Shown here: positions 1 to 36,057 of the stretch, piece after piece
Layout of the letters: each line of letters opens with the position of its first letter
How positions within the stretch are numbered: the first letter of the stretch is position 1
IMG/VR virus record: IMGVR_UViG_3300012971_000043
Location: 1-36,057 of that record
From: a virus
Lineage: Duplodnaviria > Caudoviricetes
Reading direction: 5' to 3' (one strand)
DNA: 36,057 nt
Made by a program: the position numbers and the translations under genes
The notes under the pieces: model-generated
The model's database searches: none
Seen by the model: the letters and a program-made list of their open reading frames with translations, nothing else
Told to the model about the DNA's origin: nothing

Positions 1-121
1 CCCATTCGTCGAACGACATCTCGACTTCGTCGCTGTCAGGCAGTGACGTCACGATCGCGCCGACGTCTTGATTGTGCGCGAGCCACGGCAGCGCATCGCG
101 ACAGATGAACTCAGCGCTCAT
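1..121 (-). CDS. Methyltransferase-like protein, N-terminal part only (runs off the window edge)
   Basis: Not in the ORF track. The ATG at 121 overlaps the upstream TGA (ATGA). Reads MSAEFICRDALPWLAHNQDVGAIVTSLPDSDEVEMSFDEW; C-x-DAL-x-WL...IVTSLPD resembles the start and motif IV region (TSPPY variant) of beta-class amino-MTases. Confidence 0.6.
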   Translation of the reverse strand, partial: MSAEFICRDALPWLAHNQDVGAIVTSLPDSDEVEMSFDEW

Positions 122-1029
122 GGCTTGACGAAGATCAGCGCATATTCGTGCCGCTTCGGCAGAATCTTCTGCGACAGCACTTGCGAAGCGAACGACGCGC
201 GCATCGACGTTCCGAGATCAGTGATCGCGATGTCGTGCTGTTTGAAGCCAGCGTCGCGCAGGCAGCGAATCATGTCGCCGTGGTAGTTGTAGAACCTGCC
301 GTCGAATCGAAAATCATTGACGCACCAGACTGCGAAGCTGCCGCTCTTCAAGCAGCGAAAGTTCTCTTTGCAGACGTTCGTCAGCTTGTGCAGGAAAGTC
401 GGATAGTCATTCTTGCCGAGCTGCTGCATCTCGTCGCCGTAGTCTTCGAGACACCAGTAGGGCGGTGACGTGATCGTGAAGTCGCCTGCATTGTTCTTCA
501 CTGGCATGTGCTGCGAATCGCACTCGTGCAGATCGATCGTCGCGTTGTTCAGTCTGAACATCATGTCGTCCTGTTCTTTCAGCAGTCGATCGCGCAGCTC
601 GAAGTTCGCTTTCATGAATTTCTTCGAGAGATCGCAGCCGATGTAGTTGCGACGCTCGCGCCAGCACAGTTCCATGCGCGAATTGTGCCCTGCAAAAGGG
701 TCGACGACAGTCATCCCTGCGTCAGTGTAGAGCCGCAGCAGAATGCGCCCGACGTTCTGCGGGAAGCGCGAGAGCGCACCCCAGCGCGCGCCAGCCCCGC
801 TGAGCATGAACATGTCGTAGTCGCGCACGTCTTCGCTCGTCACGAGCTGCTTGTCTTTTCCCCAGCCCGTGTCTGTGTAATTGCGTCCCTGCTCTTCGAC
901 GAGCAGATCAGTCGCTTTGTCTGCGAGACTGTAGCGCAAGATCGATTCGGGCAGCTCGCCGCCGAACAGTCTGATGATCTTTTCGCGTCGCTCTCTGCTG
1001 TCGCCTACGTCATCAAGATTCTTCGGCAT
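118..1029 (-). CDS. DNA amino-methyltransferase (N4-C/N6-A type)
   Basis: SAM-binding motif I VVDPFAGHNS, motif IV ITSPPYW, then CLKSGSFAVW and a C-terminal HEYALIFVKP. Confidence 0.85.
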   Translation of the reverse strand: MPKNLDDVGDSRERREKIIRLFGGELPESILRYSLADKATDLLVEEQGRNYTDTGWGKDKQLVTSEDVRDYDMFMLSGAGARWGALSRFPQNVGRILLRLYTDAGMTVVDPFAGHNSRMELCWRERRNYIGCDLSKKFMKANFELRDRLLKEQDDMMFRLNNATIDLHECDSQHMPVKNNAGDFTITSPPYWCLEDYGDEMQQLGKNDYPTFLHKLTNVCKENFRCLKSGSFAVWCVNDFRFDGRFYNYHGDMIRCLRDAGFKQHDIAITDLGTSMRASFASQVLSQKILPKRHEYALIFVKP

Positions 1030-1093
1030 GACTATTGACTCTATACCAAGGGAAAAACCCTTTCCAGCGCTATTTTGAGCGTCCTACGGGCAC

Positions 1094-2134
1094 TCAGAGA
1101 AGCTCGCCACGAGTCGCAGACGCTGAGTGTCGCTTTGCTGCACGTTCGTCGAGCGCCTGCATGATGTAGTTCCAGTTCTCCTCTTTCATGAACTCAGTCA
1201 CGCGCGCTGCTGGAATCTTGTCGAACGCACCCTGCTCGGCGTCAATCCAACCCTCGTCAAGTGCGAGCTTCACGAAGTCTTGCGGCGTGCAGTTGCCGAC
1301 AGCGAGCAGATCAGTGAAGCGCTGATGCGGACTTTTCTCAGTAGGGGCCGAAGGGGCCGGGCGGCTCTTTCTTTGCAGGTCTGGCGGCGGCGCTACTGCT
1401 TCGCGCGGCTTCGTCTCTTTTTTTTTCGGCTCTTCGATGACTTCAGCTTTCACAGGCACAGCTTTATCAGCTGCAGCTTTCTCACCGTCAGTCGTCGTCG
1501 TTTCTTGAAAGACGGGTCGCGCGATCTCGCCTTGAGGCGTCGCCGTCATCTCTTCATTCGTGTAGAGGCCGCCGAGCATTGTAGGAAAGCTCGATCGCAG
1601 CGCGTCGGCTTCTGCGCATTTTGTGATCATGCCAGCTGGGTCGTCTCTCCAAACGCCGAATTGCTTGTTGAAACGCGAGAGTCGCAGTCTGCGAGTGATC
1701 GGATGTGTGCGATGCTTGAAATGCACTACCGCCCAGCCGCCCAAGATTGTGTCGTTCTGCAGATGAAAATCGCTGACGAGATCGATGATCTTGCCTTCGC
1801 GCATTACGATCACGCCTGACTCCATTCCATCGAACTCAGGATGCACCTCTGCGCGTTTCAAGAACGCTTGATGCGCAGTGATCAAGCTGAACGTCGGCCC
1901 GCTCTGTGAATCGTAACCGATCAAGAACGCATCTCCCTCGAATGGATTGAGACGACGCGCTTGACACAGCAGGATGAACTTCAGCACGTCATCGTCATTC
2001 GGGCTTTTGCCTGTCTTGGTTTTTACTGCGATCAGTCGACGCACAACTTCGATCGACAGTTGAATTTTCTGATCACTGCCGAACGGCGTGAACGAAACGA
2101 TGCTCTTATCTTCAGTGTTCTCAGTCTTCGCCAT
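1094..2134 (-). CDS. bet: Bet/RecT-family single-strand annealing protein
   Basis: FILLCQARRLNPF, LKRAEVHPEFDGMESG, GGWAVV, W-x3-P-x2-M-x2-KCAEADALRSSFP; Pro/Lys-rich linker and C-terminal domain. Start moved to ATG 2134, which follows GGAGAG. Confidence 0.9.
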   Translation of the reverse strand: MAKTENTEDKSIVSFTPFGSDQKIQLSIEVVRRLIAVKTKTGKSPNDDDVLKFILLCQARRLNPFEGDAFLIGYDSQSGPTFSLITAHQAFLKRAEVHPEFDGMESGVIVMREGKIIDLVSDFHLQNDTILGGWAVVHFKHRTHPITRRLRLSRFNKQFGVWRDDPAGMITKCAEADALRSSFPTMLGGLYTNEEMTATPQGEIARPVFQETTTTDGEKAAADKAVPVKAEVIEEPKKKETKPREAVAPPPDLQRKSRPAPSAPTEKSPHQRFTDLLAVGNCTPQDFVKLALDEGWIDAEQGAFDKIPAARVTEFMKEENWNYIMQALDERAAKRHSASATRGELL

Positions 2135-2435
2135 TGTCGCTCTCCGTTTTGACGCGCAAATCGTCTTTTCCATGTTTAAGGACACAAATCAGATCGTCAT
2201 GCCGATAGACGATCGTGCCATCTTTGTCAGCGCCGATCTTGTCGCTGTAACCACGCAGCGCGTTGATCAGCTTCACTTTCGCTTCAACCTCTTTCTCGGT
2301 GCACGCCATGCGCGCATCGCGGGCTTTCACATATTTGTCGATCAGCGTGTCGACTTCAAGAATCGCAACGCGCTCGACGCCTTTCCCGGTCATGCCGGGC
2401 AGCTCTGAACTTTTCTTCGCAACAGTCATGTTCAC
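2121..2435 (-). CDS. Hypothetical protein
   Basis: 104-aa ORF packed in the operon, AGGAGG upstream. Confidence 0.7.
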   Translation of the reverse strand: MNMTVAKKSSELPGMTGKGVERVAILEVDTLIDKYVKARDARMACTEKEVEAKVKLINALRGYSDKIGADKDGTIVYRHDDLICVLKHGKDDLRVKTESDNGED

Positions 2436-2599
2436 TCAGCCTCCTTCTCATGTTTGATGTCTGCCTGCAAGGCATCGATCTTTGTTTCGACATCGCTCTG
2501 AATCTCTTCGAGATCATCGAGCGTGACTTGTTTCTCGACGCTCGTGTCACCGAAAAGCTCATCGAGCGCGTCCCTTACTGCTTCGCCTTTTGTTGTCAT
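2432..2599 (-). CDS. Small acidic hypothetical protein (55 aa)
   Basis: Not in the track. MTTKGEAVRDALDELFGDTSVEKQVTLDDLEEIQSDVETKIDALQADIKHEKEAE fills the gap with 4-bp overlaps at both ends. Confidence 0.7.
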   Translation of the reverse strand: MTTKGEAVRDALDELFGDTSVEKQVTLDDLEEIQSDVETKIDALQADIKHEKEAE

Positions 2600-2874
2600 A
2601 GTCTCTTGCTCGGCGCGTCGAAGCCGAAGTCGCCTCTCAGCCAGTAGGCAACGAGCGTCAGCTCGCTGTGCAGATCATTGTCACCCTCTTCAAACTCGTC
2701 GCTCGTTTCGTCGACGTAGTAGTGCGCATCGATCTGATCGATCGTCATGCGCTTCTGCAACACTTCAATCGTTTCTTTGAGCGTCTCGCGCGCGCGATCG
2801 TTCCAGCGATCTTGCTTTGAGAGCGCGTTTTTCAACGCGACGATCTCATTGCCGATCTCAGTGTCACTTCGCAT
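2596..2874 (-). CDS. Hypothetical protein
   Basis: 92 aa, tight overlaps with neighbours. Confidence 0.7.
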   Translation of the reverse strand: MRSDTEIGNEIVALKNALSKQDRWNDRARETLKETIEVLQKRMTIDQIDAHYYVDETSDEFEEGDNDLHSELTLVAYWLRGDFGFDAPSKRL

Positions 2875-3232
2875 CGTCGGTCTTTTTCTTTTCGAACGCG
2901 CTTGGTGTCAAGTTCGCTCTGCGCAGATCGAAGCAGCAGCCGTTGTTGAAGCTGACGCGAATTTTTGTGTCAGCGATGCCAGCAATGATGCGATGCAGCT
3001 CAGGACGCGGGATGCCTTCCCACGGCCAGTTTCTGCGAAAGTAACACATGCCGCTCTCTTCGTTTCGCTCGCGCCACCAGTCGTCAGATTTCACAAGCTC
3101 GACGTTCTCTTTGTCGACGACGATTGAGTGCGCATAGTCGCGACCGCGAATCACAAGCCAAACCCCGTCCTTGCCATTGAAGATGCCTTCGAGCATCTGC
3201 AGCTGATCGTTGAACAATGTCTCACTGCTCAT
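2864..3232 (-). CDS. Hypothetical protein
   Basis: 122 aa, ATGA overlap with the upstream gene. Confidence 0.65.
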   Translation of the reverse strand: MSSETLFNDQLQMLEGIFNGKDGVWLVIRGRDYAHSIVVDKENVELVKSDDWWRERNEESGMCYFRRNWPWEGIPRPELHRIIAGIADTKIRVSFNNGCCFDLRRANLTPSAFEKKKTDDAK

Positions 3233-4140
3233 TCAGTCGCTCCGTTGTTGCTCTTGTCTTTCAGCGGTTTCGCCCAGACAACTATATCGCCCTCAACTTC
3301 GACTACTGTGCGTCCATAATCTTTCATCGCAGCTTCAGCGATCTTGAGGCGTTTCTTTTCAGCGCGCTTCGCGATTGCGACGAGTTTGCTGCGACCGATC
3401 TCTTCGTCGAGCACGTAGATGAACTCTTGCAACCCAGCTCTTGGACCCAAAATCGAATTGAAGACACCCCTCAGGCCTTTCGGCACCGAATGACAAGGCT
3501 GCTCGCGAGCAGTAGGAACACTGCCTGACGTTCTTTGTGTTTCGAGTGCAGCCAGCTGATCTTGCTCTCTCTGCCGACCGGCGCGCAGCGATTCGAAAAC
3601 AGTGCTGACTCTGCTCTTGCCGTCACGAATGCTCTTCAGTTTTTCAGGCGCGTGCTTGATGATCTTGCGCGCATTGCTGACTGTGTTATGGCTGACGCCA
3701 AGCAGCTTCGCAGCATCGTTTATTTTCATCGGCAATTCAGCTGCAATCAGTGCGAGCTGATCTTTCGAGCATTCTTTCTTGAGCTTCTCGATCTGTTCAG
3801 TCGACATCATGCTGGCGGGTGGTGCTTGCATTGTTTTCTTCGGTCTATTGAGCAATCGATAGGCATCGCTCAAATCCGTCACATTGACGGATTTCAATTC
3901 ATCGCGTCGCTCAAAGCATGACATATATCGTTGCGGCGTTCGCCCACGCAGTTGTGTGTTCGCTTCTAACCACGAAAGAAATTCACCGTGATCGAGCTGC
4001 GCCTTGACATTGCAGAGCAATTCGCCGATGCGAATCGCCTTGCTGAGCGACGTGCGCGCAGCGCTCATGATCTCGCTGTGCAGTTCAGCGATCTCACGAG
4101 CGGCTGCGCTGAGTTTCTGATCAGGCTGCGACAGCTTCAT
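3229..4140 (-). CDS. DUF3102-like domain plus ParB-type HTH protein
   Basis: AIRIGELLCNVKAQLDHGEFLSWLE...RTPQRYM (DUF3102-like) and INDAAKLLGVSHNTVSNARKI (HTH). Probable start is ATG 4140. Confidence 0.7.
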   Translation of the reverse strand: MKLSQPDQKLSAAAREIAELHSEIMSAARTSLSKAIRIGELLCNVKAQLDHGEFLSWLEANTQLRGRTPQRYMSCFERRDELKSVNVTDLSDAYRLLNRPKKTMQAPPASMMSTEQIEKLKKECSKDQLALIAAELPMKINDAAKLLGVSHNTVSNARKIIKHAPEKLKSIRDGKSRVSTVFESLRAGRQREQDQLAALETQRTSGSVPTAREQPCHSVPKGLRGVFNSILGPRAGLQEFIYVLDEEIGRSKLVAIAKRAEKKRLKIAEAAMKDYGRTVVEVEGDIVVWAKPLKDKSNNGATE

Positions 4141-4666
4141 CAGTGAAGATTTTGCTGCGCACTTTCTCGTAGTTGCGAATCCCATCAGTGCGATGAAATG
4201 ATGGGTTGATAGCACGCTTGCCGCGCGGCTTCACTTCGCGCTTGCGTGGCTTGCGCGGTTTGCCGTTGCTCTTGCGCTCTTTCAGCGCAGTCACTGTCGC
4301 ATCTTTCACCGCGAGTTTGAAAGGAATCTCTTCTGCGACGTGCTCTGCGATCTCGCCCTTGTCGTTGATCACATTGCCTCTGTCGTATTCCTTGACGAAT
4401 GCGAGCAGCGTGAGAGGTGTGCGCCAGACAAGTTTTTGGCCCTTCTCTGTGTCGACGATGATCACTTCAAATTCGTCAACAAGTATGCTGCGCCATTGCT
4501 TGCCGTGGGTTTTGCCATAGACCTTGATCGCACGTTTGCCTGCGCAGTGCGCTGCATCTTTTCTGAACGCATTGCGAATGTGATCGTGCGTGATCACTGG
4601 CGTGTAGACTTCTGATCTCCGAGGCGCAGTGCCCTCGGCCGTTGCGGTATTGGTTTTGTTTACCAT
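4121..4666 (-). CDS. Hypothetical protein with basic C-terminal tail
   Basis: 181 aa with KPRKPRKREVKPRGKR tail; promoter-like sequences upstream. Confidence 0.7.
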   Translation of the reverse strand: MVNKTNTATAEGTAPRRSEVYTPVITHDHIRNAFRKDAAHCAGKRAIKVYGKTHGKQWRSILVDEFEVIIVDTEKGQKLVWRTPLTLLAFVKEYDRGNVINDKGEIAEHVAEEIPFKLAVKDATVTALKERKSNGKPRKPRKREVKPRGKRAINPSFHRTDGIRNYEKVRSKIFTDEAVAA

Positions 4667-4682
4667 AAAATGCGCTGAGATG

Positions 4683-4772
4683 TTCTACGAAAACTAGGTG
4701 TCAAAGTTTCAAAATATTTTGCGATGAGGCGAACATTCTGACACTTCAATTTCGCGTGTGCAAGTAGAAACT
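4683..4772 (-). promoter_or_regulatory. Promoter/operator region with GTAGAA boxes
   Basis: Minus strand TTGCAC-N17-CAGAAT and a second TTGACA (4699-4704). 4753-4772 matches 24155-24174 at 19/20 positions. Confidence 0.6.
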
Positions 4773-5584
4773 CAAATCTTTTTTCGCAGCGCTCGACGTT
4801 GACGTTCTTCGCGTTTCTCGATGACTGCGAGTGGCTCAGTCAGCAGCGCGCGCAGCTTCGCTTCGAGCAGCTCGACGATGAGACGCTGACTGAGCGCTTC
4901 AGTCTCAACTGCTTCGTGACGGCCGCTCTTGCGCGTGTAGCGACGATCAGTCTTGATGATTCGCGGCAGATCGTAGCGCACGACCTGATCTTCCGTGAGC
5001 GCGACACGCTCCCAGTCGAGGGCGCCGACTTTCTGCTCAAGAACGCTGCGCGTGTTCGATTCGATTTGATTGCCGCACAGATCAAAGTCGCCAAGATACA
5101 AGACGCGCGATGCGACTGCGCTCTGCAGCAGCGGCGCGATCTGCGTGTGCAGAAACCCTCCGCACTGCCCGTTCGTCGATGCGATGCGCACGCGGTATTG
5201 AAACGCGATCGAGCGCAGAACGCCAGCAAGCGATCGACTCTCAGTCAGCACGAGCACAGTCTCGCCGCCCCACGCATCGAGTCGCGCGTGTGGTAGATAA
5301 TCGATCAGCGCGTTCTTGATCGATGACGCGCCTGAATAGTTGTCGAGCACTCGCGTCTCGTCGACGATGTCACCCCACGGAATGATTCCCTTCTCGCGCA
5401 GCTGCTTTGACGCGTCGATGACGATCTGATCAGGACGACGCTTGCTCGTCTTTTCTTTGCTGATGATCGCGCGTGCGACCAGCTCGTAGAATAGAAACCT
5501 GACGCTCGTAGGAAGTGCGTCGTCGCGCTCGTGTTCGCGCATCAGTTCAATCAGTGCATCTCGGACTCTCGATATTTTGCTCAC
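4772..5584 (-). CDS. Topoisomerase VI-A/Spo11-like WHD-TOPRIM protein (Mini-A-like)
   Basis: TSVRFLFYELV (WHD with Arg and candidate catalytic Tyr), REKGIIPWGDIVDETR, TOPRIM Glu in VLTESRSL, DxD in LYLGDFDLCG, RVALTEDQV, ETEAL. Confidence 0.75.
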   Translation of the reverse strand: MSKISRVRDALIELMREHERDDALPTSVRFLFYELVARAIISKEKTSKRRPDQIVIDASKQLREKGIIPWGDIVDETRVLDNYSGASSIKNALIDYLPHARLDAWGGETVLVLTESRSLAGVLRSIAFQYRVRIASTNGQCGGFLHTQIAPLLQSAVASRVLYLGDFDLCGNQIESNTRSVLEQKVGALDWERVALTEDQVVRYDLPRIIKTDRRYTRKSGRHEAVETEALSQRLIVELLEAKLRALLTEPLAVIEKREERQRRALRKKI

Positions 5585-5643
5585 GCATCGTTCTACGACA
5601 TCTGCGAAGCGAGGTTCTCAGAAAATGCGTTCGTGAACGCAAA

Positions 5644-5862
5644 TCAGGCAGCAGCTTGCTCGCCGTCAGCAGACATGATGAACTTTTCGTAGGCTTTCTC
5701 TTTCAGCCCGAAGTTCAGTAGACCTTCGATGAACTCCTGCATCGGCATACGCTTCTGAACAGAGAGCACTCGAATGCGATGATGAAGGACGTCGCTGATT
5801 TTAACAGTTCTCGTCATCGGCAGCTTTGCCGGAGCCGGTGCGGTTGTCTTTTTGGTCTTCAT
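5644..5862 (-). CDS. Ribbon-helix-helix (Arc/ParG-like) DNA-binding protein
   Basis: TRTVKISDVLHHRIRVLSVQKRMPMQEFIEGLL fits the beta-alpha-alpha pattern; sits at a divergent promoter. Confidence 0.7.
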   Translation of the reverse strand: MKTKKTTAPAPAKLPMTRTVKISDVLHHRIRVLSVQKRMPMQEFIEGLLNFGLKEKAYEKFIMSADGEQAAA

Positions 5863-5872
5863 TGCGATTGCG

Positions 5873-5904
5873 AGCTTGACACGATTCTACAAGTGCGCAA
5901 GTCT
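5873..5904. promoter_or_regulatory. Overlapping divergent promoters and candidate operator (26-bp repeat copy 1)
   Basis: Plus strand TTGACA(5876)-N17-AAGTCT; minus strand TTGCGC-N16-CAAGCT. 5877-5902 is identical to 25431-25456. Confidence 0.7.
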
Positions 5905-5912
5905 TTTTTTCG

Positions 5913-6356
5913 ATGAAGCGCAAAGGGATTGAGATGACGCTCGAACAAGTCATCGCGCATCAACGCAAACACGGCTTCGAAGCGCCAGCGCCATTCAGCA
6001 GCGAGACAGTGCGCATCGCAGAGAAGAAACTGCGCAAGCTGCGAATCGGTCGACGCAAGATGACGCAGACAGAACTCGAATTTCAAGCACTGCTCAGCGC
6101 TCAAAAAGAGCAAGGGATGATTCTCGATTTCAAATTCGAAGGCGTGCGACTGCCGTGGGGTGACGGGATGCTTTTCAAGTCTGACTTCGCAGTGCAGCAG
6201 CTCAACGGCGCGATCGCGCTCATCGAAGTCAAGGGCAAGCACATTTGGAAGCACGCGATCGTGCGCTTCAAAGGCTGTCGCGCTGAGTGGAAAGATTGGT
6301 TCTGCTTCGAGTTCTGGCAGAAAGATTCAAACGGTTTATGGCATCAACTAGCTTGA
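5913..6356 (+). CDS. DUF1064-like PD-(D/E)XK endonuclease
   Basis: MTQTELEF...FKFEGVRL...FKSDFAV...LIEVKG...VRFK motif order. Confidence 0.75.
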   Translation: MKRKGIEMTLEQVIAHQRKHGFEAPAPFSSETVRIAEKKLRKLRIGRRKMTQTELEFQALLSAQKEQGMILDFKFEGVRLPWGDGMLFKSDFAVQQLNGAIALIEVKGKHIWKHAIVRFKGCRAEWKDWFCFEFWQKDSNGLWHQLA

Positions 6357-7489
6357 CAGTCAAACGGTCGACAACGTCGCCATCTAACCTTGAGCGACGC
6401 TGGCTCTGTCCCGGTAGCGCGCAGCTCGAAGCGCGCGTGTCAGTCGCAGCTGATGAAGAGGAATCGACTGACGCGGCGAAAGGCAAGCTGTTTCATCGCT
6501 ACTGGGCGAACCCGAACTACGATCGCAGCTTTCTCAGTCCGAACGATCGCGATCTGCTCGATCTCAGTGATCGACTCTGCGACGACGTGCTGAACAAGCT
6601 CGCGTTCGAAATGCAGCACGAGATTCATGTTGAACATTTCATGACGGGTCGTGACAATCGGTTTCCCGGTCGACCTGATCGCGTCTACTTTTGGCCACAG
6701 CGCAAAGCTGCGCTCGTCGTCGATCTCAAGAGCGGCTGGGCTGTTGTCGAAGGCGCGAATCTGAACTTTCAGCTGCGCGGCTACGCGCTGCTCGTCGCTG
6801 ACAATTTCGACGTCGAGCAAATTTTCGTCGCGATCTTGCAACCGCGCTTGTGGTCGCCGTCTGAACGCATTACTCTTGCGCGATATGAGTCGAAGGACAT
6901 CGAAAAAGCACGCGAGCAAATCGCAGCGATCATCGACGCCAGTGAAGCGAAAGATGCGCCGCTCAAAGCAGGCGAAGCGCAGTGCCGCTACTGCAAAGCA
7001 AAGCTCAACTGCACAGCGTTCCGATCTGCGGTCGCTCTCCCAGTAGCCGCTTTCGCAAGCAACGCTGAGCTGACGAAAGCTGCGCGCGAAGCGTTCATCG
7101 AAGAGCGCGTCAAGCAGTGCAACGACGAGCAGCTTGAGCAGGTGCTCGAAGCGTGCGCGCTCGCAGATCACGTTGCTGAGCCAGCGCGCGACGAAGCGCG
7201 TCGACGCATCCGCGACGGGCAGTTCAACAAATATTTTCTCGGCAAGGAATACGACGCGCGCTCGATCTCGAACGTGCGCCGTGCGATCGCGATGCTCGCG
7301 CTGAGCGGTATCGCGTCGCGCGAAGACATCCTCGACATCTGCAAGCTGTCGATCGACGCAGTCGAAAAGCGCTGGCGCGACAAGAACAAAGGCATGACGT
7401 GGCAACAGGCGCGCGACAAGATCAATCGCGTGCTCGCGTCTGTGATCGAGCGCGAAGCGCGCAAACCAAAGATCATCCGCAAAAAATGA
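6338..7489 (+). CDS. DUF2800-like (Cas4-like) PD-(D/E)XK exonuclease
   Basis: SPS...WLCPGS, G-x2-FH, GRPD, VVDLKSG, NFQLRGYA, ILQPR, CRYC-x5-C. Start placed at ATG 6338. Confidence 0.85.
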   Translation: MASTSLTVKRSTTSPSNLERRWLCPGSAQLEARVSVAADEEESTDAAKGKLFHRYWANPNYDRSFLSPNDRDLLDLSDRLCDDVLNKLAFEMQHEIHVEHFMTGRDNRFPGRPDRVYFWPQRKAALVVDLKSGWAVVEGANLNFQLRGYALLVADNFDVEQIFVAILQPRLWSPSERITLARYESKDIEKAREQIAAIIDASEAKDAPLKAGEAQCRYCKAKLNCTAFRSAVALPVAAFASNAELTKAAREAFIEERVKQCNDEQLEQVLEACALADHVAEPARDEARRRIRDGQFNKYFLGKEYDARSISNVRRAIAMLALSGIASREDILDICKLSIDAVEKRWRDKNKGMTWQQARDKINRVLASVIEREARKPKIIRKK

Positions 7490-8589: not shown

Positions 8590-8593
8590 AAGG

Positions 8594-26283: not shown

Positions 26284-26293
26284 GTGATGATGT

Positions 26294-26557: not shown

Positions 26558-26626
26558 AGTGTTCAGAGTCGCAGCGTCTCAACGCGCAGAAAGGGACGCA
26601 TCGTGACGCTGCTTGCTCTGATCAGA

Positions 26627-26806: not shown

Positions 26807-26876
26807 GCAATACATTCTACGCAAAAAAGCGATCGAAGTTTCTATTTTTCTCTCTGTGTGATCAGTTAGACTCGCA

Positions 26877-28034: not shown

Positions 28035-28060
28035 GTTTTTGTTCTTTCTAGGTTGTTGGT

Positions 28061-28336: not shown

Positions 28337-28338
28337 GT

Positions 28339-28557
28339 TCAAGCCCCTTTCGGGAAGTGCGCTTTGCAGCGCGGGTGAAAGCCGTCGAGCAGGCTGCACT
28401 TCGCAGGCTTGTAACAGACGTGAAACTCGAAGTGACCGCCGTGCGCTCTGCGAACAAGCCAATCGCAACGATATTTCGAGACTGGTTTCCAAGCATTGTG
28501 ACCGCGAATCAAGTCAATGACTGACTCGATCTTTGGTGCTTTCGATTCAATGTTCAT
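28339..28557 (-). CDS. Hypothetical protein
   Basis: MNIESKAPKIES..., 6 nt after the promoter. Confidence 0.65.
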   Translation of the reverse strand: MNIESKAPKIESVIDLIRGHNAWKPVSKYRCDWLVRRAHGGHFEFHVCYKPAKCSLLDGFHPRCKAHFPKGA

Positions 28558-28563
28558 GAGTGT

Positions 28564-28591
28564 AAAGTAGCACAAAGTAGAAAAGTGTCAA
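28564..28591 (-). promoter_or_regulatory. Leaderless-type promoter
   Basis: TTGACA-CTTTTCTACTTTGTGC-TACTTT-ACACTC-ATG. Confidence 0.8.
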
Positions 28592-28860
28592 GCAACAAAT
28601 TCTTCTGCGTTGTCTTGAACCCAGCGCACTGCAGCTCTGCGATTCTTCAGATGCGTTTCGAGCGGCCACACTTGCTCGCCTTCGAACTTGTAGACGATGA
28701 AGTTGCCGTCGCCGTAGAGATCGATGATCATGCCGACCATCACGCCTTTGTAGTTGATCGCCCACTTCGCCGGCACGAGACGATCGCCGCAGCGAAACGC
28801 TTCAGTGTATTGAGTGAACGTGAAGTCAGTGAGTTTGATGTCTGATTCAGTATTTTTCAT
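28588..28860 (-). CDS. Hypothetical protein, first gene of the leftward array
   Basis: MKNTESDIKLTDF..., 6 nt after the promoter. Confidence 0.7.
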   Translation of the reverse strand: MKNTESDIKLTDFTFTQYTEAFRCGDRLVPAKWAINYKGVMVGMIIDLYGDGNFIVYKFEGEQVWPLETHLKNRRAAVRWVQDNAEEFVA

Positions 28861-28866
28861 GACTAC

Positions 28867-28894
28867 ACAATCGCACAAAAACACTTGTGCGCAA
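28867..28894 (-). promoter_or_regulatory. Leaderless-type promoter
   Basis: TTGCGC-ACAAGTGTTTTTGTGC-GATTGT-GTAGTC-ATG. Confidence 0.75.
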
Positions 28895-28957
28895 CAAAAA
28901 TCTTCATTTTTTTTCAAAGCGCAGAGTGCTGATTTTCAAGCACTTACGAATGAACAC

Positions 28958-29919: not shown

Positions 29920-30534
29920 ATGAAGCCGAAAAAGCGAATCGTTGGCGCGTCTGTGCCTGCTCATGCAGCGTCAGAATCGAACGGCGCGAGTCGTGTGCGG
30001 CCATTGGAACTTGCCCGAATCCTAGTGCTTTCACAGAATGAAGTTGCTGAATTGACGCAGTCGGGCGTTTTGAAGCGCATGATTGTGAAGCAAGGCAAGC
30101 AGTCGCTGATCTACTACGACAAGGATGAGAACATTGAGCGCTACATCAGGCACATGCGCGAGCCTGAGCGACGCGCGCGCGAAGAATGGCTTCAAGAGAA
30201 GCGCGACACAGCTCGAATTGTGCGCGAACACAAAGAACTCGATCTCGCGATCGCGCGCGGCGACGCTGTGATGCGCGAACCGATCACGACAGCAGTCGTC
30301 AACGCAGTCTCGGTGATGAAGAACAACTTGCTCGCACTGCCAATTCGGCTGCCGCGACTGCTGCAAGGACAGAGCGATCCGGCGAAAATTCGCGTGATCT
30401 TGAAGACGCACGTCATGCTTTGCTTGCGCGCAGTCGAAAATTTGAGTGTTGATTCGATCGAAAAAGCGAGCAAAAACGGGCACGATGTCGAAAGGAAACG
30501 GCAAACTCGTATTGCTGCCAGGTTTCGATCGTGA
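29920..30534 (+). CDS. terS: Terminase small subunit (Nu1-like)
   Basis: wHTH-like ELARILVLSQNEVAELTQSG, then coiled coil KELDLAIARGD; directly upstream of terL. Confidence 0.8.
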   Translation: MKPKKRIVGASVPAHAASESNGASRVRPLELARILVLSQNEVAELTQSGVLKRMIVKQGKQSLIYYDKDENIERYIRHMREPERRAREEWLQEKRDTARIVREHKELDLAIARGDAVMREPITTAVVNAVSVMKNNLLALPIRLPRLLQGQSDPAKIRVILKTHVMLCLRAVENLSVDSIEKASKNGHDVERKRQTRIAARFRS

Positions 30535-32449
30535 GCTTTTCGCAGCTGCACTTGCTGCTGCGCACCCTCCGAGCGAGCGATCGCTGACTGAATGGGCTGA
30601 CGAGTTCAGAGTTCTGTCATCTGAGAGCAGCGCTGAGCACGGCGCGTGGCTGACCGCAACTGCGCCCTACGAGAAAGACATTCAAGACGCGATCAGCGAC
30701 CCTGAAGTGCCGCGTGTTGTCGTGCAGAAAGCAAGTCAGATGGGCATCACTGACTGCGCGATCGTGAACTCGATTGGCTACTTCGCGACTGAAGACCCGT
30801 GCCCGATTCTCGTCGTGCAACCGACGATCGAGATTGCAGAAGCGTTCTCGACTGATCGACTCGCGCCGATGATTCGCGACTCGCCGCATGTGCGCGAGCG
30901 ATTTGCTGATGCGCGATCGCGCGATGCGAGCAACACGCTGCGCAGAAAATCGTTCAAGGGCGGCTATGTCGCGATTGGCGGTGCGAACAGCGCAGCGAGC
31001 TTGAGCGGTCGACCTGTGCGCGTCGTGCTGCTCGACGACGTTGATCGGTATCCACCCTCGGCGGGCACTGAAGGCAACCCGCTGCAGCTTGCGATTGCGC
31101 GCACGTCAGCGTTCTACAATCGCAAGATCGTGATTGTCAGCTCGCCGGGACTTGTTGGCGTGTCGCATGTCGAGCGCGAAATGCAGCAGTCGACGTGTGA
31201 ATTTTGGTACCTGCCGTGCGCGCATTGCGGCACCTATCAGATTCTCGAATGGGACCGCGTGCGCTTCGATGATCTGACGCATCGCTGCGTGCAGTGCCAA
31301 GAATATTCTGAGAAATATCTGTGGCTCGCCGGAGATGGCGAGTGGCGCGCGCACCGCCCGATCGATGAGCGCGGCAACAAAGTGCGCACGCGCGGTTTCT
31401 TTCTCGGCGGGCTTTACAGTCCATGGGTTGAATGGGACGTGCTTCGCGACGAGTTCGTGCGCGCAGTTCGCGCGAATGAAGAGGGTGACGTCGAGCTGTT
31501 GAAGGCGTTTCGCAATACGCGACTCGGTCTGCTGCATCAGGACGAAGGCAATCAAGTGAAGATTGATCTGTATCAGCGCAGAGAAGTCTTCGACTGCGAA
31601 GTGCCAGACGGCGTCGTCGTGCTCACTGCAGGCGTTGACGTGCAAGATCAATCGATCTTCGCAGAGGTGACGGGCTGGGGAAAAGGTCGCGAATCGTGGG
31701 GCATCGACTACATCACAATTCCGGGCGACCCGCGCACAGCTGAACCGTGGCAGGCGCTCGACGCTGCAGTCTACAATCGCGTCTTCGTGACAAAGGACGG
31801 CAAGAAAATGCGCGTGCGCCGCATCTGCATCGACTCATCGTTCGCGAGCGATCACGTCTACGCATACACGAAACCTCGGCAACCGCGCTGCATTGCGATC
31901 AAGGGCATAGGCGGGCTTGGCAAGGCCCCGATCACAGCGATCACGTTTTCGAAGAGCAATCGCTGCTTGATCGCGTCACTCGGCGTTGACACGCTGAAAG
32001 AGGAGATCATGAACCGACTGAACGTGACAAAGTTCGGCGCTGGTTTCTGTCACTTCCCGCGCACTGATCAGTTCGACGTCGCGATGCAGGCGCACGAACC
32101 CGAGCGCGGCTACGATGTGAACTACTTCGAGGGCTTGCGCGCAGAGCAGCGCATCGTCAAGCACAAGTTCGGCTTCAAGACCTACATCTGGAGCAAGCGC
32201 GCATCGCAGCGCAACGAGTCATGGGATTGTCGCGTTTATTCGCTCGCGGCGCTGCAGCTGCCGCACACCGGGATTCGTCTCGATACGATGAAGCGTGACA
32301 CGATCACGATCACTGACGACGAAAAGAAAGTGACGACGACGCATTTCGGCGCGCAACAGATGCAGACACCGTTCACTGAGACGCGCAGAGTTCAAGGCGA
32401 GCAGGCGCGATCGAAGTTCGGCGCGCAGAATCGTCCGCTCGACTACTGA
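30485..32449 (+). CDS. terL: Terminase large subunit, lambda GpA family
   Basis: LTEWAD, KASQMGIT, VVQPT, LLDDVDRY, EGNP, CAHC/CVQC, NTRLG, LTAGVDVQ, RNESWDCRVY. Confidence 0.95.
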   Translation: MSKGNGKLVLLPGFDRELFAAALAAAHPPSERSLTEWADEFRVLSSESSAEHGAWLTATAPYEKDIQDAISDPEVPRVVVQKASQMGITDCAIVNSIGYFATEDPCPILVVQPTIEIAEAFSTDRLAPMIRDSPHVRERFADARSRDASNTLRRKSFKGGYVAIGGANSAASLSGRPVRVVLLDDVDRYPPSAGTEGNPLQLAIARTSAFYNRKIVIVSSPGLVGVSHVEREMQQSTCEFWYLPCAHCGTYQILEWDRVRFDDLTHRCVQCQEYSEKYLWLAGDGEWRAHRPIDERGNKVRTRGFFLGGLYSPWVEWDVLRDEFVRAVRANEEGDVELLKAFRNTRLGLLHQDEGNQVKIDLYQRREVFDCEVPDGVVVLTAGVDVQDQSIFAEVTGWGKGRESWGIDYITIPGDPRTAEPWQALDAAVYNRVFVTKDGKKMRVRRICIDSSFASDHVYAYTKPRQPRCIAIKGIGGLGKAPITAITFSKSNRCLIASLGVDTLKEEIMNRLNVTKFGAGFCHFPRTDQFDVAMQAHEPERGYDVNYFEGLRAEQRIVKHKFGFKTYIWSKRASQRNESWDCRVYSLAALQLPHTGIRLDTMKRDTITITDDEKKVTTTHFGAQQMQTPFTETRRVQGEQARSKFGAQNRPLDY

Positions 32450-32673
32450 GCGCCGAATGGCGAGCTGCTGACGTTTCTGCCTGCGGTCTGATTCGCCCAA
32501 GTGCAGAGAATGCGCGCTGCGATGCGTGTGCGGTAGCCGTGCCCTGCGCGTTCTTGCTGAATGAGCAGCTGCATCACGGTGCGCGGCACTGAGCACTCGA
32601 TTCGACACGTATCAGCTCGCGGGCGACCGCGACCACGTTTGATTTGCGTCTCTGCTTTAATCAGCGCCGCCAT
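32443..32673 (-). CDS. AT-hook plus RHH-like small DNA-binding protein
   Basis: KRGRGRPR followed by RIECSVPRTVMQLL...RTRIAARIL; fills the terL-gpW gap in reverse orientation. Confidence 0.6.
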   Translation of the reverse strand: MAALIKAETQIKRGRGRPRADTCRIECSVPRTVMQLLIQQERAGHGYRTRIAARILCTWANQTAGRNVSSSPFGAQ

Positions 32674-32787
32674 GAAGCATCGCTTGAACTGTTAGTGCAA
32701 GCACTGCTGGAGGCGCAAGCATTTTCGCGAGTATTTTATTCCGCCACGTTGACAGATCGCGTTCTCGCGCTCAAAGCTGGGCGCTGA

Positions 32788-33114
32788 ATGGAAGTTGCCG
32801 TCGTCGCCCGTCCTCTGCCAAAAAATGTTGTGCTGTTTGATCTTGACGGCACACCACCGAACGGTTTCGCAACGTGGTGCGACTGGGCAAGATCAGGTCT
32901 TGCGAATGCGCTTGATGGCATGAACAAGGCGGGCGGCGGCGTCACCGAGTATCACATTGGCTCGCGCGGTCTGCATCGCAGCGGCCCCGCTGATCAGATC
33001 AAGAACGTCGACTACTGGAACCAGATGGTGCTCTTGTGCTGCGGCGTTGAAGTGCTGCCGTCGTCGCTGACTGGTCGCGATCAAGCGTGTCGAATCATCC
33101 CGAGGGACGTCTGA
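32788..33114 (+). CDS. gpW-like / DUF6148-like head completion protein
   Basis: EYHIGSRGLHR...VDYW...RIIPRDV; located between terL and portal; TTGACA upstream at 32749. Confidence 0.7.
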   Translation: MEVAVVARPLPKNVVLFDLDGTPPNGFATWCDWARSGLANALDGMNKAGGGVTEYHIGSRGLHRSGPADQIKNVDYWNQMVLLCCGVEVLPSSLTGRDQACRIIPRDV

Positions 33115-33115
33115 T

Positions 33116-34903
33116 GTGAACGCGACACTCAACGGTCACGCGAAGCGCTTCCCGAACGGCGTGCTGCTCGGTCCCGACGGCAAGATGATCAATGCGCGCA
33201 CGTTTTTCGATCCGAAGAATCAGTTCTTGAGCTACGGTTCGAGCGGCTACGCGCACTATGGCGCGAACTTGACGAAGAACTCTCTCGCAGGCTGGCTCTG
33301 GCGCGGCGGCGACGCCGACAAAGACATCGGTCTCAACGTGCAAGTGCTGCGCGAGCGATCGCGCGACGCGTTCATGGGAATTCCGCTTGCTGCAGCTGCG
33401 ATCGAGTGTCTCGACACGAACGTCATAGGCGAAGGACTTTTCCCGGCGCCGAATGTCGACGGCGATGTGCTCGGTCTCGACGAGCAAGAAACGTCAGACT
33501 TGAACAAAGAACTCGCTGACAAATTCAACTGGTGGGCGAACGATCCGCGCGAATGCGACTTCGAATCGAAACATTCTTTCTACACGCAGATGCACGTCGC
33601 GTTTCAATCGATGCTGCTCTCTGGCGACTGCCCTGTGCTCTTTCCGCTGAAGGCGCGACCGCTCACGATGTTCGAGCTGAAGCTGCGCGTGCTTGAAGCT
33701 GATCGCGTGATGAACCCGTCAGTCGCAGAAGTCGCGCCGAGTGTCGGGCTGAATCTTTTCAGCGGCGTCGAGCTGAACGCTGAAGGCGAGCTTGTCGCGT
33801 ATCACATCAGCGATCGACACCCGCTTGCGAGCGCGCGCGCTGTGTTTCCGACAGCGCCGAAGTCGTTTCGCATCACGCCATTTGGCGACGCGAGCGGTCG
33901 ACGCAACATGGTGATGCTGATCAAGCCTGAGCGACCTGAGCAGCGCAGAGGCGTCCCGATCTTGGCAGTCTGTCTTGAGCTGCTGAAGCAGCACGGTCGT
34001 TTCATCGACAGCACAGTCGTCGCTGCTGTGATTCAAAGCTACTTCACGGCGTTCATCACGAGCGAATTTCCTGATCCGAATATTTTCGATTCGCTGCTCA
34101 CTGACGAGCAGAAGCAAGAGATCATGAATTTGAACCCATACAACGTTCAGCTCGGGCCGGGAATTGTTAATTTCATGCGCCCGGGTCACGCGGTGAACTT
34201 TGCGCACCCGACGCAGCCGCAGTCTGTGTTTGGCGAGTTCACGATCTCAGTCGCGAAATTCATCGGTGCAGCGCTGGGGATTCCCTACGAAGTGCTCTTG
34301 AAACAGTTCAACGCGAGCTATTCGGCAAGCCGCGCAGCGCTGCTCGATTTTTGGAAGCGCGTGCGCAAATATCGCGCGCAGATGATCGATCAATTCTGTC
34401 AGCCCGTCTACGAAGAATGGCTCGCAGACGCGATCGCACTTGGTCGCATCGAGAAGTTCAAGGGCGGCTTTGACGATCCGCTGATTCGTCACGCGATGCT
34501 CGGCTGCATCTGGACCGGCGCGAGCGCTGGCAGCCTCGACCCGCAGAAGGAAGTGATCGCAGCTGACATGAAAGTGAAGTGCGGTTTCTCGACGACTGAA
34601 CGCGAGAGCGCAGAGCTGAACGGCTCGAACTATCGCGACAACATCCGTCAGCAATCAATCGAGCAGCAAGAGTTCAGTGAAGCTGAGCTGATCTTTCCGC
34701 CTTATCGACCGACGCAGATCGGCGGAACGTTCTTGGGCGGGGCTGGTGGCGAACCTGCGAAGCCTGAACCTGCACCAGCTGCGCCGCCCAAGACTGCACC
34801 GCCTGCAGCGCCGCCAGCGCCGAAAAAAGCAGCGCGCACACGCAGCAAAACAAAGAACAGAGTCGCTCTTGCGAGCGGCTTGAGCGGGAGGTTCGAACGA
34901 TGA
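33116..34903 (+). CDS. Portal protein, lambda family
   Basis: LRERSRD, NVIGEG, LRVLEADR, GVE, ERPEQRRGVP, YSASRAALL, LDPQKE; Pro/Ala-rich tail. Confidence 0.95.
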   Translation: MNATLNGHAKRFPNGVLLGPDGKMINARTFFDPKNQFLSYGSSGYAHYGANLTKNSLAGWLWRGGDADKDIGLNVQVLRERSRDAFMGIPLAAAAIECLDTNVIGEGLFPAPNVDGDVLGLDEQETSDLNKELADKFNWWANDPRECDFESKHSFYTQMHVAFQSMLLSGDCPVLFPLKARPLTMFELKLRVLEADRVMNPSVAEVAPSVGLNLFSGVELNAEGELVAYHISDRHPLASARAVFPTAPKSFRITPFGDASGRRNMVMLIKPERPEQRRGVPILAVCLELLKQHGRFIDSTVVAAVIQSYFTAFITSEFPDPNIFDSLLTDEQKQEIMNLNPYNVQLGPGIVNFMRPGHAVNFAHPTQPQSVFGEFTISVAKFIGAALGIPYEVLLKQFNASYSASRAALLDFWKRVRKYRAQMIDQFCQPVYEEWLADAIALGRIEKFKGGFDDPLIRHAMLGCIWTGASAGSLDPQKEVIAADMKVKCGFSTTERESAELNGSNYRDNIRQQSIEQQEFSEAELIFPPYRPTQIGGTFLGGAGGEPAKPEPAPAAPPKTAPPAAPPAPKKAARTRSKTKNRVALASGLSGRFER

Positions 34904-36000
34904 ACGAGTTCTGGAGATTCACGAATGACGCGGGCGATGAGCCTGAAAGCGCGCAGCTCGACATCTATGACGTCATCGGCAACTGGGAGGAGATCGGTGA
35001 GATCAGCGCGAAAGCGTTCGCGCGCGACCTCGCGAAGCTGCCGTCGAGCGTGAAGCGTCTCGACATTCACATCAATTCGCCCGGCGGTTCAGTGTTCGAC
35101 GCTCAAGGCATCTACTCGCGACTCGCAGATCATCGCGCACAAAAGCACGTCTACATCGACGGACTTGCAGCGAGCGCAGCGTCGATCGTCGCGATGGTCG
35201 GTCACAAGGTCTTCATTCGCGCGAACGCGAACATGATGATCCATCTGCCGAGCGCGATGACGATGGGCGACAAGAACACGCATGAGAAAGCGCGTCGCGC
35301 GCTGCAGTCGATTGAAGATTCGATGATCAACACCTACACGAAAAAGACTGCGCTCAGTCGTGACGAGATCGCTTCGATGCTCGCAGACGAGACGTGGCTC
35401 AACGCAGAGCAGGCTGTCGAGAAAGGATTCGCTGATGAAGTGCGCGGCGTGATCAAGGCAGCTGCGTCATTCGATCTTTCGCAGTTCAAGTTCAAAAATG
35501 TCCCGGCGTTCACCGCCACCAAAACAACAAAGGAAGAACCCATGAGCAAAGCAAACATCAAAGCAACGGCGGCAGAGGAGACGCCGCCGGCAAAAGACGA
35601 ACCGAAAAAGGAAGAGACTCCGCCCGCGACAGAGCAGGAGCCGAAGAAAGACGAGCAGCCACCGAAGACAGGTGACGCTGCGACTGACGCAGCTGCGAAC
35701 GCAGTGAAACAAGAGCGCGCACGCGTCGCAGCGCTGCTCGAACTCGATCGCCCTGCAACGCATGACATCGTGCAGGCAGCGATCAAAGACGGCAAGCAGG
35801 TCGCTGACGTCATCAAGGACGTCATGTCGGCGATGGACAAGGCGAGCACGCAGAACGCTCGACGCGCTGATGCGTCGCAGCTCGACGGAATCCCTGCATC
35901 GCAAGATGACAGTGACGGCAAGAAAGAGTTTGGCGCGAAAATCAAAGAGAAAGTGCAGGCGCGCATGAAGCGCGGCAACGTTCGCGTCACGCGCAGCTGA
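34900..36000 (+). CDS. ClpP-like head maturation protease with C-terminal scaffold region
   Basis: HINSPGGSV, IDGLAASAAS (Ser), MMIH (His), ETWLNAEQAVEKGFAD. Confidence 0.92.
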   Translation: MNEFWRFTNDAGDEPESAQLDIYDVIGNWEEIGEISAKAFARDLAKLPSSVKRLDIHINSPGGSVFDAQGIYSRLADHRAQKHVYIDGLAASAASIVAMVGHKVFIRANANMMIHLPSAMTMGDKNTHEKARRALQSIEDSMINTYTKKTALSRDEIASMLADETWLNAEQAVEKGFADEVRGVIKAAASFDLSQFKFKNVPAFTATKTTKEEPMSKANIKATAAEETPPAKDEPKKEETPPATEQEPKKDEQPPKTGDAATDAAANAVKQERARVAALLELDRPATHDIVQAAIKDGKQVADVIKDVMSAMDKASTQNARRADASQLDGIPASQDDSDGKKEFGAKIKEKVQARMKRGNVRVTRS

Positions 36001-36035
36001 CAACAATCAAATCGAAGAAAGGAACAACAAGCAAT

Positions 36036-36057
36036 ATGGCAATCAAAGATTCAGTCA
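36036..36057 (+). CDS. Start of the next head gene (truncated; head decoration or capsid by synteny)
   Basis: AAAGGAA RBS followed by ATG GCA ATC AAA GAT TCA GTC. Confidence 0.5.

What the first reader, a model, noticed from the sequence alone, without database searches (positions are those of the whole stretch)
1..36057. Window-wide purge of CC/GG dinucleotides with abundant GATC/TCGA/CGCG/GCGC/AGCT palindromes
Seen: despite GC above 50%, CC and GG are scarce. 26596-27018 (423 bp) has none, and elsewhere they mostly occur where Pro, Gly or Trp codons force them. Ala and Thr use GCG/GCA/GCT and ACG/ACT/ACA rather than GCC/ACC. Four-base palindromes lacking CC/GG are very common, the opposite of ordinary restriction-site avoidance. 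Inference: strong selection on a CC/GG-containing target. Options are PAM avoidance (NGG for Cas9-type, CC for type I-F), a CC/GG-directed host nuclease or modifier, or a phage base modification that protects other contexts but is absent or harmful at CC/GG.
Basis: partly seen in the sequence, partly recalled or inferred. Interest (0 to 1): 0.85.

Follow-up and report, generated by a model that had tools for sequence, protein, structure and literature searches.

The report
Phage purges the CC it marks
This soil phage has removed most avoidable CC/GG and TA steps from its DNA, yet keeps some restriction sites only where they overlap CC/GG, which likely means that its own methyltransferase marks the first C of CC as a shield and that each mark likely carries a small cost.

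Summary
The depletion is real: CC/GG odds ratio 0.38; at synonymous positions CC/GG is disfavoured about 14-fold on both strands. The 'abundant palindromes' are a by-product, and classical restriction-site avoidance is strong. The window is part of a ~56-kb soil phage; its likely hosts (Chthoniobacterales) are far less biased (0.64-0.97). New here: the window's few surviving GTAC, GAATTC, GTGCAC and GATATC sites (8 of 8) overlap CC/GG. Across phages carrying its SPPY amino-methyltransferase (118-1029), 45 of 47 GTAC do. Non-carriers show no such sparing, except one partial record. The position fits the known GTA(m4C) block. Carriers are the most CC-poor, with sister contrasts in two phage families; one carrier is shielded but not depleted. 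Substitutions look like weak selection, not hypermutation. Best reading: a phage-written mark, probably m4C on the first C of CC, shields restriction sites but costs a little per site. The source of the cost and the TA purge are unexplained. PAM avoidance and the hydroxylase are not supported. Earlier notes of this scan saw CC/GG avoidance and CC/GG-spared sites in other phages, without a writer.

The parts
1..36057 (.). Window-wide depletion of CC/GG (odds ratio 0.38) and TA (0.25), in coding and non-coding DNA, both strands
118..1029 (-). Orphan amino-methyltransferase, 303 aa; motif I (DPFAG) before motif IV (TSPPY); candidate writer of the mark on CC
   Evidence: Pfam PF01555 E 2e-14; motifs invariant in 53 homologues; co-occurs with sparing of CC-flanked restriction sites
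1..121 (-).
   Evidence: translation; no tblastn match in the loci held
1094..2134 (-). RecT-like annealing protein, directly upstream of the methyltransferase here and in the family carriers examined
7486..8589 (+). 2OG-Fe(II) hydroxylase (Asp_Arg_Hydrox); tested and not required for the bias
   Evidence: not found in 10 of 10 relatives; present in two other carriers, G444 and G448
8477..8482 (.). GGTACC: one of only two GTAC sites, CC/GG on both sides
31206..31211 (.). GGTACC: the other GTAC site, CC/GG on both sides
33377..33384 (.). GGAATTCC: the only GAATTC site, CC/GG on both sides
2298..25370 (.). The four GTGCAC (2299, 8242, 12409, 18798) and the single GATATC (25364): each overlaps CC/GG on one side
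10192..10605 (+). DnaB N-terminal domain of the helicase gene (10129-11667); the host lead
   Evidence: 54-59% identity to DnaB of one Chthoniobacterales family, at most 39% in the other lineages tried
15100..28900 (-). Leftward module of small genes; strongest CC/GG penalty in the window
   Evidence: relative odds of a new isolated CC/GG 0.032 (95% CI 0.024-0.041) vs 0.071 and 0.081 in the other two modules
26595..27019 (.). 425-bp CC/GG-free tract holding a whole Gly/Pro/Trp-free ORF (26627-26815, minus strand) and its upstream region
   Evidence: no comparable tract in 18 relatives, longest 179 bp
30485..36000 (+). GpA terminase, lambda-type portal and ClpP head protease; family markers

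Best explanation
The phage's few surviving GTAC, GAATTC, GTGCAC and GATATC sites all overlap CC/GG, likely because its orphan methyltransferase (118-1029) marks the first C of CC, probably as N4-methylcytosine, and each marked site likely costs a little fitness, so avoidable CC/GG has been purged. Steps. (1) Shown: depletion on both strands, in all flanking contexts, far beyond the likely host. (2) Shown: some restriction-type words ending in C survive almost only when followed by C, more so with both ends flanked. (3) Shown as correlation: this sparing follows the methyltransferase across three kinds of phage. (4) Inferred: the enzyme writes the mark, incompletely, and the mark is m4C; the footprint fixes only the base pair (first C of CC, or its partner G). 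(5) Shown: substitutions are selection-like (scaled penalty about 2-2.5 per site). (6) Inferred: the cost comes from the mark itself and depends on host or time since acquisition; most likely a host modification-dependent nuclease or a rare damaging side-reaction; not identified. TA depletion is a separate, unexplained pressure.
For: GTAC in 12 carrier records: unflanked 2 of 457 expected, one flank 34 of 164, both 11 of 17.4; 42 of 44 non-homologous sites flanked. In 11 non-carrier records: 5 of 412, 6 of 273, 1 of 50. GAATTC 0/50, 0/8, 4/0.3; GTGCAC 7/67, 17/24, 2/2.1; GATATC 0/20, 3/3, 1/0.1. Words starting with C are not clearly spared (CTAG+G 29 of 128 vs 21.7). The spared C is the cognate m4C position of M.RsaI, GTA(m4C), while unspared GAGCTC and CCWGG have inner-C cognate marks (PMC3287169 Table 1, PMC6256690 Table 1). 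Enzyme: SPPY motif, sequence matches to 2ZIE (E 9e-12) and the N4-cytosine MTase 8S9M (E 2e-4). Among the genes compared it is the only one shared by the window's family, G442 and G448. Sister contrasts: G442 (carrier) 0.43 vs G447 (complete, none) 0.74; G444 0.45 vs G010 0.90. In the family, 10 carrier-clade records 0.38-0.65 vs 4 with no modification gene found 0.79-0.90. It is mutually exclusive with a FolE/QueD/QueE deazaguanine cassette in the records examined. Loss-only hypermutation fits worse than selection by 38-181 log-likelihood units in three data sets.
Against: No direct methylome. G448 carries the enzyme and spares 22 of 24 GTAC but has CC/GG 1.00: the mark is not sufficient for depletion. 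Distant homologues (33-48%) sit mostly in phages with CC/GG above 1 and show no sparing of GATC (15 of 78 vs 16.1). Carriers G006 and G444 have no GTAC at all, and G006 has another bias pattern. G009 has no such enzyme yet 0.58; deazaguanine carriers are intermediate (0.58-0.74). G449 (34% complete, enzyme not found) has 6 of 9 GTAC flanked. GGCC stays under-represented (36 vs 57) although a plain CC mark would cover its inner C. G004 was counted with carriers although its gene slot is not covered. Podovirus contrast is weak: carriers 0.50 and 0.62, others 0.58-0.88 among the close relatives. A model with CC loss by mutation type fitted the 86 differences of the close pairs better than selection (5850.7 vs 5879.1), though far worse in the mid pairs (6319 vs 6216). 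Records are related, so group tests are not independent. The fold's best matches are tRNA m2G methyltransferases. McrC was found in 0 of 151 host-family genomes. TA is unexplained.
Confidence: 0.55

Rival explanations
1. A host defence reads unmodified CC/GG. The phage purges the step to escape it, and the methyltransferase was gained to shield the amino-acid-forced remainder; sparing of restriction sites is a side benefit.
For: Explains selection-like dynamics, the stronger purge in the leftward module and the 425-bp tract, and G448 (mark without depletion, another host). Earlier unchecked notes report CC/GG-free cassettes in many other phages.
Against: Relatives with no modification gene found should then be the most purged; they are the least (0.74-0.92), although they avoid GTAC too. 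DUF4007/SspB in 5 of 151 and Cas1 in 10 of 151 host-family genomes; no full-length homologue of the enzyme in 301. Exact hosts are unknown, so differing hosts could hide the effect.
Confidence: 0.2
2. Same scheme, but the mark is on guanine: N2-methylguanine on the second G of GG, the partner of the first C of CC. A minor-groove methyl would slow polymerases and so explain the per-site cost directly.
For: The footprint cannot tell C from its partner G. Best structural matches of the model (pLDDT 87.7) are tRNA m2G enzymes Trm11 (Z 18.9, rmsd 3.0, 180 aligned), TrmN (18.5) and Trm14 (17.7). It alternates with another G-modifying cassette.
Against: Generic methyltransferases score within 1 Z unit (17.9); beta-class DNA MTases are circular permutations and would rank low in an order-dependent alignment. 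Sequence matches are to DNA amino-MTases, and SPPY is listed for beta-group amino-MTases. The spared position is a known m4C position.
Confidence: 0.08
3. An amplified host signature plus the summed avoidance of many CC/GG- and TA-containing restriction sites; no special mark.
For: Likely hosts lean the same way (CC/GG 0.64-0.97, TA 0.32-0.64); many sites are purged; CC/GG and TA vary together across the family.
Against: A new isolated CC is penalised about 5-30-fold in nearly all contexts; host penalty x0.9-2.6 vs x14.5; cannot explain why purged words survive precisely beside CC/GG. The true host may be unsampled.
Confidence: 0.07
4. The methylated C is hypermutable, as at one Salmonella m4C site, so CC decays by mutation and not by selection.
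For: Precedent of about 500-fold C-to-A at an m4C motif (10.1101/2021.01.19.427316); CA/TG and AG/CT are raised relative to hosts; the by-type loss model fits the close pairs best.
Against: Transitions involving a CC/GG allele are fewer than normal rates predict (17 vs about 38 in close pairs, computed); loss-only models are rejected in three data sets; the raised steps follow from compensation (96% explained by two penalties).
Confidence: 0.06
5. CRISPR PAM avoidance (CC for type I-F, NGG for Cas9).
For: Context-free, both-strand, selection-like depletion is what a 2-base PAM predicts.
Against: Cas1 in 10 of 151 host-family genomes, subtypes not determined; published effects about 0.3 log2 (PMC4246573); does not explain the spared sites.
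Confidence: 0.04

Closest known systems
Promiscuous orphan phage amino-methyltransferases (Hia5, Hin1523, Nma1821; M.EcoGII; Mu Mom as functional analogue)
   Same: Phage-borne, no partner nuclease, target of about two letters, protection against many restriction enzymes (PMC3299994 and PMC12707154, passages read).
   Different: Those mark adenine; here the inferred mark is on a C:G pair in CC/GG, and the genome has purged the target 10-20-fold, which the passages read do not report.
M.CviPII (CCD, 5mC; chlorella virus) and M.NgoMXV (relaxed m4C enzyme)
   Same: Short CC-containing targets (both motifs recalled, not from a call; that M.NgoMXV is an m4C enzyme is from PMC2890505). The reduced cost of a third C fits a one-site-per-run motif such as DCC or CCD.
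   Different: No sequence comparison could be made with either; CviPII is a C5 enzyme paired with a nickase (recalled).
Classical restriction-site avoidance
   Same: GTAC, CTAG, CCWGG, GGATC and several 6-mers are purged.
   Different: The main signal is two letters long and context-free, and purged words are kept where they overlap it.
CRISPR PAM depletion in phages (PMC4246573)
   Same: Short motif lost on both strands beyond codon bias.
   Different: Effect several times larger on a log scale; CRISPR rare in the likely host family.
Phage 7-deazaguanine modification (CAjan, iggy; PMC7544227, PMC10484667, listing and start of abstract only)
   Same: Post-replicative mark at short motifs that shields against restriction; four relatives carry the precursor genes.
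   Different: Those genes are absent from the window and were not found in the carriers, including 98%-complete G002.

Membership tests
DNA amino-methyltransferase (N4C/N6A, PF01555) | Motif I (FxGxG-like) and motif IV (S/D/N)PPY on a SAM-dependent fold | tested here: met
   DPFAG and TSPPY conserved in 53 homologues; Pfam above cut-off; Rossmann MTase fold
N4-cytosine methyltransferase | Produces m4C in DNA | not testable with these tools
   Indirect only: SPPY, match to 8S9M, spared position equals GTA(m4C)
Promiscuous orphan phage MTases (Hia5/EcoGII kind) | No cognate restriction nuclease beside it | tested here: met
   Neighbours are RecT and a tail gene or an unknown ORF; the window's downstream ORF is truncated
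Promiscuous orphan phage MTases (Hia5/EcoGII kind) | Target of about two bases, protecting against several enzymes | tested here: inconclusive
   Footprint on four different words, with all four bases seen after CC; no biochemistry; GGCC not protected
Promiscuous orphan phage MTases (Hia5/EcoGII kind) | Adenine target | tested here: not met
   Spared position is a C:G pair; TA-forming flanks spare nothing (0 vs 35 expected)
Trm11/TrmN/Trm14 guanine-N2 methyltransferases | Closest fold, and m2G product | tested here: inconclusive
   Top Z 18.9 but tied within 1 with generic MTases; product untested
CRISPR PAM avoidance | Host carries a CRISPR type with CC/GG PAM | tested here: inconclusive
   Cas1 in 10 of 151 genomes of the likely host family; true host and subtypes unknown
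Ssp phosphorothioate defence (CC-linked; recalled) | Host sspB (DUF4007) | tested here: inconclusive
   5 of 151 genomes, 4 over the cut-off
7-deazaguanine-modified phages | folE, queD, queE and dpdA in the genome | tested here: not met
   Cassette confined to G007, G008, G009, G252 and L449; not found in the window or in carriers; the window lacks about 20 kb
m4C-linked hypermutation (Salmonella type III site) | Raised loss rate with normal gain rate | tested here: not met
   Gain reduced to x0.15-0.42, loss raised only x1.8-2.3 in the free model; one sub-model disagrees for the close pairs

The most novel reading that the evidence does not exclude
A mobile family of phage amino-methyltransferases writes a two-letter mark on CC/GG (m4C, or even N2-methylguanine, which I do not know as an enzymatic DNA mark). 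The mark shields restriction sites but is itself penalised by a host reader of modified CC/GG, and phages answer by recoding the whole genome 10-20-fold away from their own target. This enzyme would then be the first named writer behind the CC/GG avoidance seen in many phages.
Probability: 0.35. Interest if true: 0.87.

Novelty: new variant of a known kind. Interest (0 to 1): 0.72.

Why it matters
It turns an odd composition into a testable enzyme-target claim: one 303-aa gene, predicted target CC, predicted protection pattern (RsaI-, EcoRI-, ApaLI-, EcoRV-type sites yes; SacI-type no). A phage that removes its own modification target genome-wide shows a cost of anti-restriction methylation that is hard to see otherwise, and points to an unidentified host reader or lesion. 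It also offers a candidate writer for the CC/GG avoidance noted elsewhere in this scan, a way to read methylation motifs of uncultured phages from spared restriction sites, and possibly a CC-specific m4C enzyme as a tool. The likely hosts are uncultured-type soil Chthoniobacterales.

Tried and rejected
Hydroxylase as cause: not found in 10 relatives incl. CC-poor G001, G002. Prophage-based host call: best genome hits of the terminase only 33-46%; cluster members gave no host names. Enzyme family as a general CC-depleter: distant homologues do not deplete or spare. Second-C mark: the CTAG+G signal vanished with a better background; GAGTTG+G 4 of 8 vs 1.2 remains a weak hint. TA as a protective m6A mark: no sparing, and GT(m6A)C would block RsaI (PMC2588503). 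McrBC as reader: McrC 0 of 151, and TCC, not RCC, is the most penalised. mRNA-level or Shine-Dalgarno cause: penalties equal on both strands and codon positions, also intergenic. Conserved CC/GG-free end cassette: not in 18 relatives; promoter scan found nothing in the tract. First model fit timed out; the second had a flat-gradient fault in several models and was redone. No RNA holder listed. No DNA MTase among the top 50 fold matches. Literature searches found no report of a phage CC-directed m4C enzyme or of a genome-wide CC/GG purge; the library lacks most subscription journals, and no supplements were read. One paper on m4C MTase evolution was not held. Look-ups of earlier findings by place and by sequence were empty.
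Full report
Observation. The window is 55.5% G+C with a CC/GG odds ratio of 0.38 and a TA ratio of 0.25; CG and GC are 1.49 and 1.47. In 42 genes, 62% of CC/GG are forced by Pro, Gly or Trp, and at codon junctions CC, GG and TA are 0.22, 0.29 and 0.13 of a synonymous-shuffle null. A model of synonymous choice with only two penalties, CC/GG (x14.5) and TA (x9.3), captures 96% of what all dinucleotides explain; the penalties are about equal on both strands and at both codon positions and intergenic DNA shows 0.38 too, so the target is DNA. The five 'abundant' palindromes are at 0.99-1.10 of an order-2 Markov expectation, whereas GTAC, CTAG and five 6-mers are purged. The 425-bp tract at 26595-27019 exceeds all 300 simulations. 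Contigs from other runs agree with the part laid, 16500-36057.

What the DNA is. GpA terminase, lambda-type portal, ClpP protease, RecT, a Cas4-like exonuclease and a DnaB-N/AAA helicase mark a tailed phage; holders are soil metagenomes. Complete relatives are 55-58 kb, so about 20 kb are missing. Across 54 terminase loci of the family CC/GG runs from 0.36 to 0.99, with values under 0.5 in three parts of the tree. The DnaB N-terminal domain scored best against a Chthoniobacter genome among 27 genomes tried, and 54-59% against one family of that order; this is a lead from one domain, not a proof. In 77 stretches from 61 genomes of the order CC/GG is 0.64-0.97; in 16 stretches of 20 kb the synonymous penalty is x0.9-2.6. 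Three short loci (G209, G271, G396) and the tallies include genomes flagged unpublished; the extremes quoted do not come from them.

Fine structure. In seven CC-poor phages a new isolated CC is penalised in nearly every context (median relative odds 0.06-0.08; control contexts 1.0), but extending an existing CC costs much less (about 0.3-0.7); TCC and CCT are hit somewhat harder. This is not the pattern of a few 4-6-base sites. In near-identical pairs, transitions involving a CC/GG allele number 17 where control rates give about 38. Fitted on three sets of pairs, selection beats loss-only mutation by 42, 181 and 38 log-likelihood units; gain-only is close to selection; a model of CC loss by mutation type is better for the close pairs (86 differences) and much worse for the mid pairs (1,233 differences). 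I read this as weak per-site selection; a biased repair process would look the same.

The footprint of a mark. Earlier notes on marine phages (e1-5884896, e1-5763493) suggested testing whether purged sites survive beside CC/GG. They do. All 26 GTAC in 16 CC-poor records overlap CC/GG. In the final count, 12 carrier records (G004 included by clade, its gene slot not covered) have 2 unflanked GTAC of 457 expected, 34 of 164 with one flank and 11 of 17.4 with both; 11 non-carrier records have 5 of 412, 6 of 273 and 1 of 50, and 9 of those 12 sites lie in one 34%-complete record. GAATTC, GTGCAC and GATATC behave alike; GAGCTC does not (0 of 125), GCATGC not clearly. In the window all 8 such sites are flanked. 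Words that begin with C are not clearly spared, so the protected pair is the first C of CC with its partner G. Published cognate marks fit: GTA(m4C) for M.RsaI, inner C for M.SacI and M.BstNI (PMC3287169, PMC6256690; passages with tables). GGCC, still under-represented, does not fit a plain CC mark.

The candidate writer. Gene 118-1029 encodes an amino-methyltransferase with motif I before TSPPY, 527 homologues at E 1e-30, mostly viral clusters at the top. It is present in G001-G003, G005, G006, G444, G442, G445, G446, G443 and G448, G451, and not found in complete G007-G010 and G447. G007, G008, G009 and G252 carry FolE, QueD and QueE genes instead. CC/GG falls in three tiers: carriers 0.38-0.65 (10), deazaguanine cassette 0.58-0.74 (5), neither found 0.79-0.90 (4) (values; test, records not independent). 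In a second phage family G442 (carrier) is 0.43 and spares GTAC, its sister G447 is 0.74 with no GTAC. G448, a third kind of phage sharing little but this gene and the hydroxylase, spares 22 of 24 GTAC yet has CC/GG 1.00: the mark follows the gene, the purge needs something more. Distant homologues show neither trait. By sequence the enzyme resembles DNA amino-MTases including an N4-cytosine enzyme; by fold, tRNA m2G enzymes rank first but narrowly.

Why purge a protective target. Relatives with no modification gene found are the least depleted, which favours a cost of the mark over a reader of bare CC/GG. A scaled penalty near 2.5 needs only a very small cost per site in a large population (inference). 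The cost is about twice as strong in the leftward small-gene module of the window and of G442 (intervals overlap there), slightly so in G002, not in G001, G004 or G005. I did not find the agent: McrC 0 of 151, DUF4007 5 of 151, Cas1 10 of 151, full-length enzyme homologue 0 of 301 host-family genomes (32 half-domain matches). Phage hypermodification creating targets for modification-dependent nucleases, and toxicity of non-specific MTases, are stated in a review (PMC12707154, passages). TA stays depleted outside GTAC and CTAG (relative odds 0.12) and spares nothing; it is unexplained.

Comparison and verdict. It works like the promiscuous orphan phage methyltransferases (PMC3299994, passages) but on a C:G pair, with a genome-wide purge of the target that my searches did not find in print (open-access library only). 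Other papers: PMC4246573 passages; 10.1101/2021.01.19.427316, first of two parts of the text; PMC2890505 and PMC2588503 passages. M.CviPII and M.NgoMXV motifs and the CC link of Ssp systems are recalled. My odds: a mark on CC/GG exists 0.85; this gene writes it 0.75; m4C 0.6; the mark causes the purge 0.55. New variant of a known kind; interest 0.72.

Noticed in passing
window 1-36057: TA is purged as strongly as CC/GG (x9.3 at synonymous sites), tracks it in this family (fitted penalties nearly equal in four sets of pairs) but not in podoviruses G443/G446, and shows no protective footprint.
   Followed up: partly
L217:13784-18527 (G009); L438, L449, L458: A sub-group of the family has a FolE/QueD/QueE cassette, with ParB-like and glycosyltransferase-like genes in two members, near the slot where others have the methyltransferase; G007 and G009 also spare some purged words beside GG/CC (GGATC+C 18 of 32, AGCTC+C 13 of 15, CAGCTG+G 8 of 8), a possible motif footprint of a guanine modification.
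   Followed up: partly
L207-L209 (G006): Carrier with a 66%-identical enzyme but a different bias: GA/TC 0.75, ACC and CCC low, GCC high; spares GTGCAC beside CC. Possibly a changed specificity.
   Followed up: partly
L357-L358 (G444): GGCC survives mainly when followed by C or G (42 of 56), ATTT/AAAT is purged (29 vs 100), TA penalty x20; suggests a CCS-type variant.
   Followed up: no
window 26595-27019 and 28061-28336: Local CC/GG deserts with Gly/Pro/Trp-free or -poor small ORFs, 1-3.5 kb left of the small terminase gene; resembles the end cassettes of earlier notes but not conserved in relatives.
   Followed up: partly
L354:932-1735, L195:16056-16823, L197:12911-13729: Unannotated 255-272-aa protein directly downstream of the methyltransferase in G442 and G001, elsewhere in G002; no Pfam match, no NCBIfam match for the one tested.
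   Followed up: partly
window 10129-11667: Helicase fused to a host-like DnaB N-terminal domain; useful as a host marker for this family.
   Followed up: yes
window 17011-18456: 481-aa protein with an N-terminal GHKL/sacsin-like ATPase domain and a C-terminal HELGH metallopeptidase-like motif, patchy in relatives.
   Followed up: no
G002 vs G007, G008, G010, G251, G254 orthologues: Gly+Pro+Trp content is 0.5-2.2 points lower in the CC-poor phage in all five comparisons: the bias may reach the proteins.
   Followed up: partly
L369-L373: Cas1 matches in the host family lie in open frames of 600-800 aa, suggesting fusions.
   Followed up: no
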